Source: the human T2T-CHM13v2.0 reference genome, Homo sapiens. From it: a stretch of 64,000 nucleotides of DNA. The notes beneath the pieces are model-generated. The model was not told where the DNA came from. It saw nothing but the letters and a program-made list of their open reading frames with translations, and did no database searches. Made by a program: the position numbers and the translations under genes. Location of the stretch: the NCBI RefSeq assembly GCF_009914755.1, contig NC_060939.1; one strand, 5' to 3'. The first letter of the stretch is position 1, and the number at the start of each line of letters is the position of its first letter. Positions 17,210 to 26,129 of the stretch are shown piece after piece.

Positions 17210-17952
17210 TGTTAACGGGTGGGTCTTTGTTCTTAGAGCTCCCAAGATGGTGGCAAGCCTTTTGTTCTCTGACCAGAGGTTCCTGGCCTCACGGATTCCA
17301 AGGAATGGAACCTTGGGCCATGCGGTGAGTGTTACAGCTCTATTAGAAGCCGTGGGTCACAGAAGAGAACCGTGGAACCCAGTGACTAGTGTTAAGCTCA
17401 GTTAGGACAAACCTGGGCACTAAGCTGTGCAGGAACAATGGTGAGCCTCTAGCCCCAACGGGAGCAGCAATGCGTGCCTCGCTGGATCAGAAACGCAGAG
17501 GACACCCTGCCGGATCTGGAGGGGGGGAAGTCAATGGCAGGTCTGCGATGGCAGCGAACAGCAGTGGTGGATGGTGAGCGAAAGCTCACCTCGAGCCGGA
17601 AGAAACATGGACCAGAAGAGTGTGCAGTTGCAAGATTTAATAGAGTGAAAACTGAGCCCCCATACAAGGGGAGGGGACCCAAAGCAGATTGCCCCTCCCT
17701 GCTCGAATGCCTGGGGTTTATATCCCAATCATTGTCCCTCCCCCTGTGCTCTCAGATGATAGATGATTTGACTATTTCTTTACCTCCTGCTTTTAGCCTA
17801 ATTGGTATTTTAGTAAGCCCTCTTTACTACCTGATTGGTCAGGTGTAAGCTGAGTTTCAAGCCTCGTGTTTAAAGGTGGGTTCAGTCATCTTCCCCAGCT
17901 AGGCTTAGGAATTCTTAGTTGGCCTAGGAAATCCAGCTAGTACTGTCTCTCA
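17210..17952 (-). mobile_element. Solo LTR17 (HERV-W LTR)
   Basis: Reverse complement begins TGAGAGACAGTACTAGCTGGATTTCCTAGGCC, typical of LTR17; TG..CA termini; 4-bp TSD AAGG (17206-17209, 17953-17956). Confidence 0.9.
17305..17324 (+). CDS. LTR17-derived start exon of the putative D-PCa-2 ORF (MEPWAM-R)
   Basis: ggaATGGAACCTTGGGCCATGCG|GTGAGT; phase 2 joins T-GCA-CTT-GAT at 25631 in frame; candidate acceptors at 17236 and 17276. Confidence 0.5.
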
Positions 17953-18849
17953 AAGGGAACTCTAGCAGCTGCATTCTCATGGAAATGTTTAGATTAATTA
18001 GAGGACAAACTTTTTTTTTTTTTTTTTGAGACAGAGTCTCTGTCTGTCACCCAGGCTGGAGCACAGTGGTGCAATCTTGGCTCACTGCAACCACTGCCTC
18101 CCAGGTTCAAGGAATTCTTGTGCCTCAGCCTCCCGAGTAGTTGGGATTACAGGCTTTCACCATCATGCCCTGCTAATTTTTTTTTTTGTTGTTGTATTTT
18201 TAGTAGAGTCGGGGTTTCACCATGTTGGCCAGGCCGGTCTCGAACTCCTAACCTCAAATGACCCTCCCATATCAGCCTCCCAAAGTGTTGGGATTACAGG
18301 TGTGAGCGACTGCACCTGGCCTGTGGACAAACTTTCCTTGTGTGTCTACGAATCAGTGAATGAAAGATCATTTTTAGAGAATGAAAACTAACCTCAAGAA
18401 AGCAGAGAGAGGGTAGAGACTTCTGGGGTCTGAGCTCTCCCATATGACTTTCATGCCATGGGACTGTAGTAGTCACCCAAGAGAATGACATAGGCCCATC
18501 TGTAGCCATCTCTCCCCTTCTGCTCTTCTGTCCCAGGATCTAGTTCTAGGAACAGAAAGGACAGATCTTCAAACACCTAGACATCTGATGCCTACACTCA
18601 TAGGCTTCTCCCATCACATTCCCTGTCCCTATATCAGGTACGTCAGTCCTGCTCCAAGCCAAAGGAGTGGTGCCTCAATTGCTACCACCAATGGCAAAAG
18701 GCATCTATTTCTGCTGCTTCCAGCTTCTGCTTTTGCTTTAGAAACTGTCATTCTTGGGATACATGAGAGACAGACACTGCTAACCTAACTGCTGGTTCAT
18801 CTTCCACTCCTGGCACTTCCATTCCATCAGATATCTTAGGGGCTGAAAC

Positions 18850-19431
18850 TGACATAGGAGTTAAGAAGGGATTACTTAGGCAGATAGTAAGGGCATGGGA
18901 GTCCTCCTAAGGCTTTTCTTTTTAATGAAAAGCAGCCCCAAATCATTTTCTAACAAAGAGCAGCCTGCAAACTGGGAGCTTGCACGGGTGCATGCTAGCA
19001 GGAACTAAGGACTAGGCATTTTCAAAACAGAGGCTCCATCTTCCCTTCTCTGCCAGCCACGTGTATTGTAAGGAGCAGACAAGATGGCGCAGGTCAACTG
19101 GGAAGTCCATTTGCATGAGAAGATTAGGGTGGGGAGACCAGCCTTCCTGGCGCACCACGTAAACGTCATAACTGATCCAACCAGTCTGTGAGCCCTATGT
19201 AAATCAGATACCGCCTCTTCAAACTGAATTATAAAACTTGGTGCATTCACCACCAGCTGTTCCTTTTTGCTCGGAGATCCCTCTCTGTGTAGAGGAAGCT
19301 GTTTCTCTTTCTCTTCTCTTCTGCCTTTTAAACCTCCGCTCCTAAACTTCTCATGTGTGTACGTGTCCTAAATCTTCCTGGCACGTGACGACGAACCCCA
19401 GGTTTATACTGCAGACGACACAGCCCCTTCA
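18850..19431 (+). mobile_element. Solo ERV1-class LTR (LTR9/MER61-like)
   Basis: TG..CA termini, TSD AAAC on both sides, TATA-like TATAAAA near 19230; subfamily from recall. Confidence 0.75.
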
Positions 19432-24199: not shown

Positions 24200-24810
24200 A
24201 AGAATTTTGTAAGAATATTCATAGGTACTCACCGTTTCTCTTAGGTAAAGAGCTAAGAGTGGAATTCCTGGGTTATGGGATAGATATATGTTTAACTTGG
24301 TAGGAAATTGCTAATTTTTCAAAGTGTTTATATCATTTTACACCTCCATTAGGAAAGTATGAGTGATCATTTCTCATCTCACCAACATTTGGTATTGTCA
24401 GGTGGGTTTTTTTTTTTCATTTAATTTTGGTGAATTCTAATTTATCTGTTTTTTGTTGTTGTTGTTGCTGTTGTTGCTGCTGCTGGTGTTTTTGATATTG
24501 TATCTTAGAAATTGTTGGCTAATCCAAAGTCACGAAGATTTACACCTGTGTTTTCTCCTAAGCGTTTTATAGCTTTATCTCTTACATTTAGGTGTATGAC
24601 CCCTTTGAGTTAACTTTTGTACATGATGTGAAGAAATGGTCCAAACTGATTCTTTTGCATGTGGATATCCAGATGTCCCAGCACCATTTGTTGTAAAGAC
24701 TGTTCCTTCCTTACTGAGTTGCTTTGATCCCTTTGTGGAAAATCAGCTGACCATAAATGTATGGATTTATTTCTGGACTCTCAATTCTACTGATGTATAT
24801 GCCTATCCTT
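24200..24810 (-). mobile_element. Old L1M fragment(s)
   Basis: Antisense L1 ORF2 motifs (ttgcatgtggatatccag..tcccagcaccatttgttg). Confidence 0.65.
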
Positions 24811-25630
24811 ATGCATAGTTTTAATTGTGGTAATTTGTTGTAGTCTTAATTGTGGCAATTCATCATAGTCTTAATTTGCATTTAATTGTATTTTCCTGAT
24901 GACTAATAATTGCCCTAGAAAGTTCCTTCTTACCCGTGCCAGTCAATCCCTTTCTGCATCCCCATTCCCCCAGAGCTAGCCATTGTTTTGATTAGTTTCC
25001 ACTGCAAATGAGTTTTAACCTGTTTTACACCATTATATAAAAGGAATCACACAGTGTACACTTTTTAGTGTGGACTTCTTTCTCTCAGCATGTTTTTGAG
25101 ATTTATCCATTTATGGTGTATATTATAGTTTGTTGCTTTCAGAAGAAATTTTTACCACAAAGATTTTCAAATTTTTCTCAACTTATTTCTTTTTATTTAA
25201 TTTGTATATGAAAAATTTTAGCCTGTTTTTTACATTTCTCATCTAATTGCAGGTTATTTTCAACTTACAATTATAGGTTTGCCAAGTTTTGGATCTCTAA
25301 TGTTTTGCTTATTTCTGGTTTTTGTCAAGCCCATGCACTTGACTTCTGCTAGTCCCTTGAAGGCTGTACCAGAGTCAAGGGCCATCTTCTTCCTTTTAAA
25401 GCTCACATACATTGCCATCTTTTTATTAGCTGACCTAAGTGTATATTTATCCAAACATCTAATTTATTCCAGCTTTAGATCTTCTTGCATCTGAGTTATT
25501 AAAATACACATTTAATTTACAATACCTACTAGTATTTATCAAAAATTTACTGAAATTATTCATGGTATTTGGGGGGAAACACTATCTAAAAAGGACCCAT
25601 GATTGATTATTTGTTTATTTATTTATTTAG

Positions 25631-26129
25631 TGCACTTGATTTTGCAGATGAGTCTGGAAGTGTTAGTTGCAAAGATATGCATTTACTTCTCTGGCTACAA
25701 AAAAGAATAGAAATGCACAAAGCAGAGCAGTGTGAAGAAGAAGAGGCGATGACCCCTAGACCGACCAAAGCCCGTGCTCCACTGCCCAGTGCCTATGTCC
25801 CACCACTGTCGCTGCCACCCTGCCCGAGAGAAAGGCTGAAGGGGATGCTAAAGGAGATAAAACCAAGGTTAAGTAGGAACTGCAGAGAAGATCCACAAGG
25901 TTGTCTGCTAAACCTGCTCCTCCAAAGCCACAGCCGAAGCCCAGAAAGGCCTCTGCAAAGAAGAGAGAGAAGGTACCTACAGAGAAGAAGGGAAAAGCTG
26001 ATGCTGGCAAGGAGGGGAATAACCCTGCAGAAAATGGAGATGCCAAAACAGACTAGGCACAGAAAGCTAAAGGTGCTGGAGATGCCAAGTGAAGTGTGTG
26101 CATTTTTGATAACTGTGTACTTCTGGTGA
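25631..26129 (+). CDS. Putative D-PCa-2 ORF, main exon (+1 frame over the HMGN2 retrocopy); 150 aa from ATG 25677 or 172 aa if spliced from 17305-17324; translation unproven
   Basis: Open frame 25599-26129 in the ORF track; acceptor tttatttag| at 25630; crosses the retrocopy 5' junction; resembles the recalled Dresden prostate carcinoma 2 putative protein. Confidence 0.5.

What the first reader, a model, noticed from the sequence alone, without database searches (positions are those of the whole stretch)
17305..26129. Three-part chimeric de novo ORF: HERV-W LTR17 start exon + old exon + HMGN2 retrocopy in the +1 frame
Seen: the antisense LTR17 supplies ATG GAA CCT TGG GCC ATG CG and a strong donor GTGAGT (17325). 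Splicing to the acceptor at 25630 gives [37 protein letters not shown], which runs through the TSD into the HMGN2 5'UTR and CDS in the +1 frame, stopping at 26129: 172 codons from three unrelated sources, with the retrocopy supplying the poly(A) signal. Recalled: this matches the putative prostate-enriched D-PCa-2/C15orf21 product, and the locus is a known ETV1 fusion partner. The tripartite origin is my reading of the sequence; translation is not demonstrated here.
Basis: partly seen in the sequence, partly recalled or inferred. Interest (0 to 1): 0.8.

Follow-up and report, generated by a model that had tools for sequence, protein, structure and literature searches.

The report
Known chimeric ORF of HMGN2P46
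The 172-codon reading frame is real and is stitched from a retroviral LTR, unique DNA and an out-of-frame HMGN2 retrocopy, but it was described in 2008 for the prostate transcript C15orf21/HMGN2P46, and nothing shows that it makes a protein.

Summary
ATG 17305, donor GTGAGT 17325 and acceptor AG 25629-30 give a spliced frame of 172 codons ending in TGA 26127-29.

The start exon lies in an antisense 743-bp solo HERV-W LTR (17210-17952, 4-bp target duplication AAGG). The terminal exon is 94 nt of single-copy DNA plus an HMGN2 processed pseudogene read one base out of frame. The pseudogene's own AATAAA ends the transcript.

This anatomy is already in print: Baertsch et al. 2008 (PMC2584115, Table 3 and Fig. 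2D legend). They list the ORF as disrupted in chimpanzee, orangutan and rhesus and state there is no evidence of a protein.

Three points are added here:
- The living HMGN2 mRNA has a single +1-frame stop before the same terminal TGA. That stop reads TTA in the window.
- 3 of 28 other HMGN2 retrocopies also have 100 or more open codons in that frame.
- The LTR's ATG, donor and acceptor are shared across the LTR family, and at least five upstream ATGs precede the start.

Verdict: a real, already known ORF that is most likely accidental. Interest is low.

The parts
6244..6368 (+). Exon 4 of NR_022014.1, non-coding here. It carries four upstream ATGs at 6254, 6270, 6276 and 6333.
   Evidence: AG/GT splice context; uATG list.
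17210..17952 (-). Solo HERV-W LTR (RepBase name LTR17), 743 bp, antisense to the transcript. It has TG..CA ends and is flanked by the 4-bp duplication AAGG (17206-17209 and 17953-17956).
   Evidence: The name LTR17 comes from PMC5016936 (passages).
17237..17324 (+). Exon 5, lying wholly inside the antisense U5 part of the LTR. It holds a strong-context uATG at 17247 and the ORF start.
   Evidence: The signals are shared by other LTR copies.
17305..17324 (+). First 20 nt of the ORF (ATG plus six and two-thirds codons), followed by donor GTGAGT at 17325-17330.
25599..26129 (+). Contiguous genomic ORF of 176 codons in the same frame, running through the acceptor.
25631..25724 (+). First part of the terminal exon: single-copy flank that includes the upstream target-site duplication (25709-25722). 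About 31 codons. It holds the in-frame ATG at 25677 that starts the 150-codon version.
   Evidence: The 150-aa isoform is listed in PMC2584115 Table 3.
25725..26889 (+). HMGN2 processed pseudogene: 5'UTR 25725-25819, former CDS 25820-26092, then 3'UTR. The start codon is now CTG (25820). Frame-0 stops TAG lie at 25874-25876 and 26054-26056. An A-run follows at 26889-26898, and the second target-site duplication copy is at 26898-26911.
25869..25871 (+). TTA at the position of the only +1-frame stop (TGA) of the present-day parent mRNA. The difference is at base 25870.
26127..26129 (+). ORF stop TGA, 37 nt into the HMGN2 3'UTR. The same TGA ends the +1 frame in the parent mRNA.
26861..26866 (+). 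AATAAA of the retrocopy, 22 nt before the RefSeq transcript end at 26888.
   Evidence: Colinearity with the parent's 3' end is shown.

Best explanation
This is the known transcribed pseudogene HMGN2P46 (C15orf21, D-PCa-2), a spliced polyadenylated prostate-luminal transcript.

Its penultimate exon is an exonised piece of the antisense U5 region of a solo HERV-W LTR. The LTR family carries a ready-made acceptor, two ATGs and a GTGAGT donor on that strand. Its terminal exon is defined by a T-rich acceptor in unique DNA and by the poly(A) signal of an HMGN2 processed pseudogene inserted 94 nt downstream.

The 172-codon ORF is an accidental by-product. The purine-rich HMGN2 mRNA is almost stop-free in its +1 frame from its 5' end to a TGA 37 nt into the 3'UTR, and the one intervening TGA reads TTA in this copy. 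The 31 flank codons and the 7 LTR codons happen to be open and supply in-frame ATGs.

**Shown:** the anatomy, the origin of each piece, and the near-open parental frame. **Taken from print:** prostate expression, and ORF disruption in other primates. **Inferred:** that the ORF is not, or only barely, translated and has no protein function. On this reading the transcript matters as a non-coding RNA, as a donor of a prostate-active promoter in cancer fusions, and possibly as host of the intronic SNORA41B.
For: - **ORF and splice sites:**
- **LTR identity and ends:** 1035 first-look candidates in the own genome, of which 40 were scored at 86-90% identity. It aligns at 84.4% over 742 nt with the LTR beside the Syncytin-1 env ORF. 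TG..CA ends and the AAGG duplication are.
- **Family-wide signals:** among 30 other copies (29 dispersed plus the one at the Syncytin-1 locus), the ATG is present in 28, GTGAGT in 27 and the upstream ATG in 29. The acceptor AG is present in 19, differs in 2, and did not align in 9.
- **Retrocopy identity:** HMG14_17 at E 1.6e-25 covering profile positions 1-90 of 90. Identity to the assembled parent exons is 1062 of 1157 ungapped columns, 91.8%.
- **Parental +1 frame:** one stop only, which reads TTA in the window.
- **Base rate:** 3 of 28 other retrocopies are open for 100 or more codons through that frame.
- **No sign of selection on the ORF:** in the 310-nt ungapped stretch there are 7 synonymous and 16 non-synonymous differences in the ORF frame, ratio 0.63. 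The old HMGN2 frame gives 0.47 and the third frame 1.24, on 23-24 differences in all.
- **Upstream ATGs:** five precede the start within exons 4-5 alone. Those at 6276 and 17247 have A at -3 and G at +4, and the 17247 uORF overlaps the main ATG.
[quoted passage not shown] The hub's gene table lists the gene as a transcribed pseudogene with an NR_ transcript.
Against: - UniProt keeps an entry for the product (Q86SG4). One serum proteomics table lists it with 1 peptide and 1 spectrum at 4.07% coverage (PMC4607824). That is weak but not nil.
- The main ATG has G at -3 and G at +4, a usable context.
- The stop lies in the last exon, so the ORF itself would not trigger nonsense-mediated decay.
- Isoforms that skip exons 4-5 could start at the ATG at 25677 (150 codons) with fewer upstream ATGs.
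- 172 codons is long for a random transcript: 1 of 2000 shuffles reached it.
- I could not look at Ribo-seq, mass-spectrometry repositories, human variation or other primate genomes.
Confidence: 0.8

Rival explanations
1. The ORF is a genuine, very young (human-specific) protein-coding gene. On this reading D-PCa-2 is translated in prostate luminal cells into a basic 20-kDa protein with a function of its own.
For: - A 172-codon ORF with a usable start context and its stop in the last exon.
- A multi-exon, spliced, tissue-restricted transcript: C15orf21 is called prostate-specific in PMC2480965 and luminal-specific in PMC3483554.
- One single-peptide listing in a proteomics table.
- No frameshifting indel relative to the parent across the 405-nt retrocopy part of the ORF. 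All four alignment gaps in the 5'UTR part are multiples of three.
Against: - The frame was nearly open in the parent mRNA, and 3 of 28 sister retrocopies show comparable open runs, so length alone carries little weight.
- There are five or more upstream ATGs, one of which overlaps the start.
- The ORF is disrupted in chimpanzee, orangutan and rhesus (PMC2584115), so there is no conserved function.
- There is no synonymous excess specific to the ORF frame.
- Among the 31 papers holding 'HMGN2P46' and the 27 holding 'C15orf21' (of which 30 and 26 were listed, titles and abstract starts only), none appeared to be about a protein product.
- The 5'UTR gaps lie in triplet-like GAA and GCC runs, where slippage by three is expected.
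Confidence: 0.07
2. The ORF has no function but is translated at a low level from some isoforms. It would then yield unstable peptides that could be presented on HLA as prostate or prostate-cancer restricted antigens.
For: [quoted passage not shown]
- The usable ATG contexts at 17305 and 25677 are open to leaky scanning.
- The single-peptide listing.
Against: - The same upstream ATG burden applies.
- None of the listed HMGN2P46 or C15orf21 papers (titles and abstract starts only) appeared to give immunopeptidomic or Ribo-seq evidence.
- Supplementary tables of such studies were not searchable here.
Confidence: 0.12
3. The feature is not real: a chance frame or an annotation artefact with no such splice.
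For: No RNA data were examined here. The junction 17324/25631 rests on the RefSeq model quoted by the hub and on the spliced mRNAs and ESTs counted by Baertsch 2008.
Against: - Canonical GT/AG lies exactly at the annotated exon ends.
- A BestRefSeq transcript uses the same exons.
Confidence: 0.01

Closest known systems
C15orf21 / HMGN2P46 as a 'Type III novel gene candidate' (Baertsch et al. 2008, BMC Genomics 9:466, PMC2584115, Table 3 and legend of Fig. 2D)
   Same: This is the same locus and the same ORF: 172 aa, first coding exon from an LTR, second coding exon partly from unknown sequence fused to an HMG retrocopy read out of frame. The 163-aa and 150-aa isoforms and the disruption in chimpanzee, orangutan and rhesus are also listed there.
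   Different: Nothing differs in kind. Four points are added here:
- The LTR is shown to be a HERV-W solo LTR in antisense with an AAGG duplication.
- Its splice sites and ATGs are shown to be shared across the LTR family.
- Only one +1-frame stop separates the parent mRNA from this ORF.
- The count of upstream ATGs.

The paper writes the parent as 'HMG2' in the table and 'HMG14' in the legend. The parent found here is the six-exon gene on contig 1 (named HMGN2 after the hub's gene name, not by a call), and the family is HMG14_17.
Other out-of-frame retrocopy ORFs in the same table (MARK2/FLJ25758; RPL13A/NM_203308 with a MIR-derived first coding exon)
   Same: A retrocopy supplies most of a new ORF in a frame other than the parent's, and a transposon or flank supplies the start (PMC2584115).
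   Different: Those two stay open in chimpanzee (81 aa and 170 aa), whereas this one is listed as human-only. They were not examined here.
Transposon exonisation and LTR-derived first coding exons (for example C20orf91 in the same table)
   Same: Cryptic splice sites inside a repeat are recruited into a host transcript, and the repeat supplies the ATG.
   Different: Here the strand is antisense to the LTR, and all four signals pre-exist in most copies of the family. The exon therefore needed no locus-specific mutation that I can see.
Non-coding snoRNA host genes (general class; the resemblance is recalled, not tested)
   Same: A spliced, uORF-laden, poorly conserved transcript carries an H/ACA snoRNA in an intron on the same strand: SNORA41 family, 117.7 bits, at 7409-7536.
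   Different: Whether SNORA41B is processed from this intron, or expressed at all, was not tested.

Membership tests
HERV-W LTR (RepBase LTR17) | Sequence homology to the LTRs of the HERV-W provirus that encodes Syncytin-1 | tested here: met
   Window 17221-17952 aligns at 84.4% over 742 nt with the stretch directly downstream of the 538-codon env ORF in L047. That ORF matches PDB Syncytin-1 chain 8ouh_D at E 2.4e-295. RepBase LTR17 was built from elements such as the 7q21.2 Syncytin-1 locus (PMC5016936, passage).
HERV-W LTR (RepBase LTR17) | LTR architecture: TG..CA termini, a length near 780 nt, and a short target duplication when solitary | tested here: met
   The element is 743 bp. On the LTR's own strand it runs TG..CA, and AAGG lies on both sides. 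No internal proviral sequence was noted in the few tens of bases read on each side; I ran no search for one.
HERV-W LTR (RepBase LTR17) | Dispersed multi-copy family | tested here: met
   There were 1035 first-look candidates, and the 40 scored were at 86-90% identity on many chromosomes.
L1-mediated processed pseudogene of HMGN2 | Intronless and colinear with the spliced parent mRNA | tested here: met
   Six parent exons with GT/AG borders in L053 align in order to window 25725-26888. Identity is 91.8% over 1157 ungapped columns.
L1-mediated processed pseudogene of HMGN2 | Poly(A) remnant and target-site duplication | tested here: met
   An A-run lies at 26889-26898. The 14-nt AGAAATGCACAAAG lies at 25709-25722 and 26898-26911.
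L1-mediated processed pseudogene of HMGN2 | HMG14/17 domain in the parental frame, disabled | tested here: met
   Pfam PF01101 at E 1.6e-25 over profile positions 1-90 of 90, with X at two TAG stops. The ATG is replaced by CTG at 25820.
Lineage-specific de novo ORF | The ORF is open in human and closed in outgroups at the orthologous locus | not testable with these tools
   No primate genomes are held. The claim is taken from PMC2584115 Table 3: chimpanzee and orangutan 'Disrupted', rhesus 4 stops, marmoset frameshift.
Lineage-specific de novo ORF | The reading frame is unrelated to any older protein frame | tested here: met
   The frame is +1 relative to HMGN2. The remainder comes from antisense LTR and single-copy DNA. 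The product itself was not scanned against protein families.
Protein-coding gene | Evidence of translation or of selection on the protein | tested here: inconclusive
   Only indirect tests were possible. There is no synonymous excess particular to the ORF frame (0.63, against 0.47 and 1.24 in the other frames, on 23-24 differences). Five upstream ATGs precede the start. One single-peptide listing exists. Ribo-seq and MS data are not available here.

The most novel reading that the evidence does not exclude
The human-only ORF is translated in prostate luminal and prostate-cancer cells, perhaps mainly from isoforms that skip the uATG-rich exons and start at 25677. It would give a basic 17-20 kDa product, or HLA-presented peptides, restricted to prostate. 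That would be a datable case of a protein born from an LTR, a flank and the +1 frame of a retrocopy by loss of a single stop.
Probability: 0.1. Interest if true: 0.5.

Novelty: already known. Interest (0 to 1): 0.15.

Why it matters
The locus is a clean worked example of how three unrelated pieces of DNA can assemble a long ORF with almost no mutational work. The LTR brings splice sites and an ATG. The retrocopy brings a nearly open alternative frame and a poly(A) signal. One base change removes the last stop.

It also matters clinically as a prostate-active promoter donor for ETV1, MYC and SKIL fusions. None of this is new, because the ORF and its tripartite make-up have been in print since 2008. 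What remains open is only whether the ORF is ever translated.

Tried and rejected
1. **Family scan of the ORF product.** I did not pursue it, so 'no known domain' for the product rests only on Baertsch's phrase 'no known homologs'.
2. **Literature search for 'D-PCa-2'.** It found 0 papers. The original description (Weigle et al., Int J Cancer, about 2004) is recalled, not seen.
4. **Ordering the two insertions from sequence alone.** The retrocopy is 91.8% identical to its parent, and the LTR is 86-90% identical to sister copies. These figures do not separate the ages, so I computed no dates.
   - The order retrocopy first, LTR later is an inference. Baertsch's marmoset column reads 'y', and HERV-W is stated to have entered after the split from Platyrrhini (PMC5016936). 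ERV-W-like elements do exist in Platyrrhini (PMC5775608, abstract).
5. **Selection test.** Substitution counts by frame gave no signal particular to the ORF frame, and the counts are small.
6. **The four 5'UTR gaps, all multiples of three.** I considered them as a hint of frame conservation and rejected that. They sit in GAA and GCC triplet runs, and gap placement is alignment-dependent.
7. **The 'old exon' reading.** The flank is single-copy. There are no data for or against earlier exon use.
8. **Exons 1-3 of NR_022014.1.** They lie outside the window and their coordinates were not given. The count of upstream ATGs is therefore a lower bound.
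Full report
**1. The observation**

The window has ATG at 17305-17307, followed by 17 more exon bases and GTGAGT at 17325-17330. At the other end, a long T-rich tract and AG at 25629-25630 precede base 25631. A script that joined 17305-17324 to 25631-26129 gave 519 nt: 172 sense codons and TGA at 26127-26129.

The splice contexts of the three RefSeq exons in the window (6244-6368, 17237-17324, 25631-26888) are all AG|exon|GT. 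The computed product has 172 residues, 20,402.9 Da and pI 9.89. I could not compare the sequences letter by letter.

**2. The start exon**

*Extent and ends.* A search of the window's own genome with 17205-18050 found 1035 first-look candidates. The 40 that were scored match at 86-90% identity, and the longest of them together span about 17209-17961. Alignment with ten of those copies plus flanks puts the ends at 17210 and 17952. The element runs TG..CA on its own strand and is flanked on both sides by AAGG. It is a 743-bp solitary LTR with a 4-bp target duplication.

*Family.* To name it, I searched the genome for retroviral env (Pfam TLV_coat). One match on contig 7 has an uninterrupted 538-codon ORF that matches PDB Syncytin-1 chain 8ouh_D at E 2.4e-295. 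The LTR just downstream of that env aligns with window 17221-17952 at 84.4% over 742 nt, with the window's + strand antisense to env. RepBase calls the HERV-W LTR 'LTR17' and built it from elements such as this 7q21.2 locus (PMC5016936, passages).

*Position of the exon.* Exon 17237-17324 lies 28-115 nt from the LTR's U5 end.

**3. The exon's signals belong to the LTR family**

I compared 30 other copies: 29 dispersed ones and the one at the Syncytin-1 locus. The counts at homologous positions were:

| Signal | Present | Other |
|---|---|---|
| ATG (17305) | 28 of 30 | 2 differ |
| Donor GTGAGT | 27 of 30 | 3 differ |
| Upstream ATG (17247) | 29 of 30 | 1 differs |
| Acceptor AG | 19 of 30 | 2 differ, 9 not aligned there |

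In the 9 unaligned copies the local alignment did not reach the acceptor; in several such copies one search shows extra bases there. The LTR thus arrived with a ready-made antisense exon. I built no consensus.

**4. The terminal exon**

*Retrocopy.* Window 25725-26888 is colinear with six GT/AG-bounded exons of a gene on contig 1, with 1062 of 1157 ungapped columns identical (91.8%) and 14 gap events. The parent's frame encodes 90 residues. The window's copy of that frame matches Pfam HMG14_17 over the whole profile at E 1.6e-25 when its two TAG stops (25874-25876, 26054-26056) are read as X. Its start codon is now CTG at 25820.

The retrocopy ends in an A-run (26889-26898) and is flanked by the 14-nt duplication AGAAATGCACAAAG at 25709-25722 and 26898-26911. 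Its AATAAA at 26861-26866 lies 22 nt before the annotated transcript end. The genome holds at least 77 candidate HMGN2-like stretches, of which 40 were scored.

*Flank.* The 94 nt between the acceptor and the retrocopy, together with the 250 nt upstream, match nothing else in this genome. This agrees with Baertsch's 'unknown sequences'. 'Old exon' is not shown. An equally simple inference is that a fortuitous T-rich acceptor became a terminal exon once the retrocopy placed a strong poly(A) site downstream.

**5. Why the frame is so long**

ORF codons start at 25821, one base after the old HMGN2 start. 'The +1 frame' is therefore correct.

In the present-day parent mRNA that +1 frame is open from the first base of the mRNA to the very same TGA, 37 nt into the 3'UTR, with a single exception. 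One TGA lies 16 codons after the start codon. In the window that codon is TTA (25869-25871, difference at 25870).

About 135 of the 172 codons were therefore one base change away from being open on the day the retrocopy landed. That statement is an inference, because it takes today's parent mRNA as a proxy for the ancestral one.

| Comparison | Result |
|---|---|
| Other retrocopies still stopping 16 codons after the old start-codon position, where the parent's TGA lies | 19 of 28 |
| Open for 100 or more codons through the frame | 3 of 28 |
| Open for 130 or more codons | 2 of 28 |
| Longest open run among them | 295 codons |
| Dinucleotide shuffles of the three exons reaching 172 codons | 1 of 2000 (mean 60) |

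The sister-copy base rate is the more relevant null, and against it the ORF is unremarkable. Unspliced DNA is also open in this frame for 176 codons from an ATG at 25599. The LTR exon therefore changes only the first seven codons.

**6. Signs for and against translation**

*Against.* Five ATGs precede 17305 in exons 4-5 alone: at 6254, 6270, 6276, 6333 and 17247.
- Those at 6276 and 17247 have A at -3 and G at +4.
- The 28-codon uORF from 17247 overlaps the main start and ends in the last exon.
- Exons 1-3 lie outside the window, so five is a lower bound.
- Over the 310 ungapped nucleotides from the old start to the ORF stop there are 24 differences from the parent. In the ORF frame 7 are synonymous and 16 non-synonymous (ratio 0.63), compared with 0.47 in the old HMGN2 frame and 1.24 in the third frame. 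This is no signal particular to the ORF, on small counts.

*For.* The main ATG has G at -3 and +4. The stop is in the last exon. One serum proteomics table lists the UniProt entry with a single peptide and a single spectrum.

**7. What is in print**

Baertsch et al. 2008 (PMC2584115; I read section 12 with Table 3 and the legend of Fig. 2) list C15orf21 with three isoform ORFs:
- 172 aa: 'first coding exon from LTR', C-terminal exon from an HMG retrocopy out of frame.
- 163 aa: first coding exon from an L2 LINE.
- 150 aa: out-of-frame sense retrocopy alone.

All three are 'Disrupted' in chimpanzee and orangutan, have 4 stops in rhesus, and are frameshifted in marmoset. [quoted passage not shown]

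Other papers (passages only) describe the locus as follows:
- C15orf21 is a prostate-specific, androgen-repressed 5' partner of ETV1, found in 4 of 23 ETV1-rearranged cancers (PMC2480965).
- HMGN2P46 is a luminal-specific promoter donor to MYC (PMC3483554).
- It is also a promoter donor to SKIL (PMC4467434).

Searches for 'HMGN2P46' (31 papers, 30 listed), 'C15orf21' (27 papers, 26 listed), 'D-PCa-2' (0) and 'Dresden prostate carcinoma' (1) turned up no paper that, by its title or the start of its abstract, appears to be about the protein. Supplementary tables were not searched.

**8. Order of events (inferred)**

Baertsch's marmoset column marks the retrocopy locus as present. HERV-W copies entered after the split from Platyrrhini, mostly 40-25 million years ago (PMC5016936). 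The likely order is therefore:
1. The HMGN2 retrocopy inserted.
2. The LTR inserted, with recombination to a solo LTR at an unknown time.
3. The frame opened on the human branch.

My own identity figures cannot separate the first two steps.

**9. Verdict**

The finding is the known C15orf21/HMGN2P46 ORF, whose chimeric make-up was published in 2008.

The most likely account (0.8) is an accidental, human-only ORF in a non-coding prostate transcript. It was made cheaply because the LTR family carries an antisense exon with an ATG, and because the HMGN2 mRNA is nearly stop-free in its +1 frame. Real translation remains untested. I put a functional protein at about 0.07, and low-level non-functional translation at about 0.12.

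Noticed in passing
window 7409-7536 (+): A full-length match to Rfam SNORA41 (117.7 bits against a gathering score of 80, model positions 1-133 of 133). It lies in the intron between exons 6244-6368 and 17237-17324, on the same strand as HMGN2P46. The transcript could therefore serve as an H/ACA snoRNA host. This is RefSeq's SNORA41B.
   Followed up: partly
window 17210-17240, compared with L002, L004, L058, L060, L066, L068, L071 and others: LTR copies of this family fall into two forms at the U5 end. Some align straight through, as the window's copy does. Others carry extra bases about 30-50 nt from the end, with a short stretch matched twice. This may correspond to the two HERV-W subgroups described in PMC5016936.
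   Followed up: no
L032 (G000:C6:108105553-108109722): Another HMGN2 retrocopy whose +1 frame is open for 295 codons, running on into its flank. This is longer than the ORF under study. Whether it is transcribed is unknown.
   Followed up: no
window 17007-18007: The two RefSeq 'enhancer' features quoted by the hub (17007-17507, 17508-18007) together cover the whole solo LTR (17210-17952). The LTR may act as a regulatory element as well as an exon donor.
   Followed up: no
window 25725-25819 compared with L053 exon 1: The 5'UTR part of the retrocopy differs from the parent by four alignment gaps of 3, 3, 9 and 3 nt, all multiples of three, in GAA and GCC triplet-like runs.
   Followed up: partly
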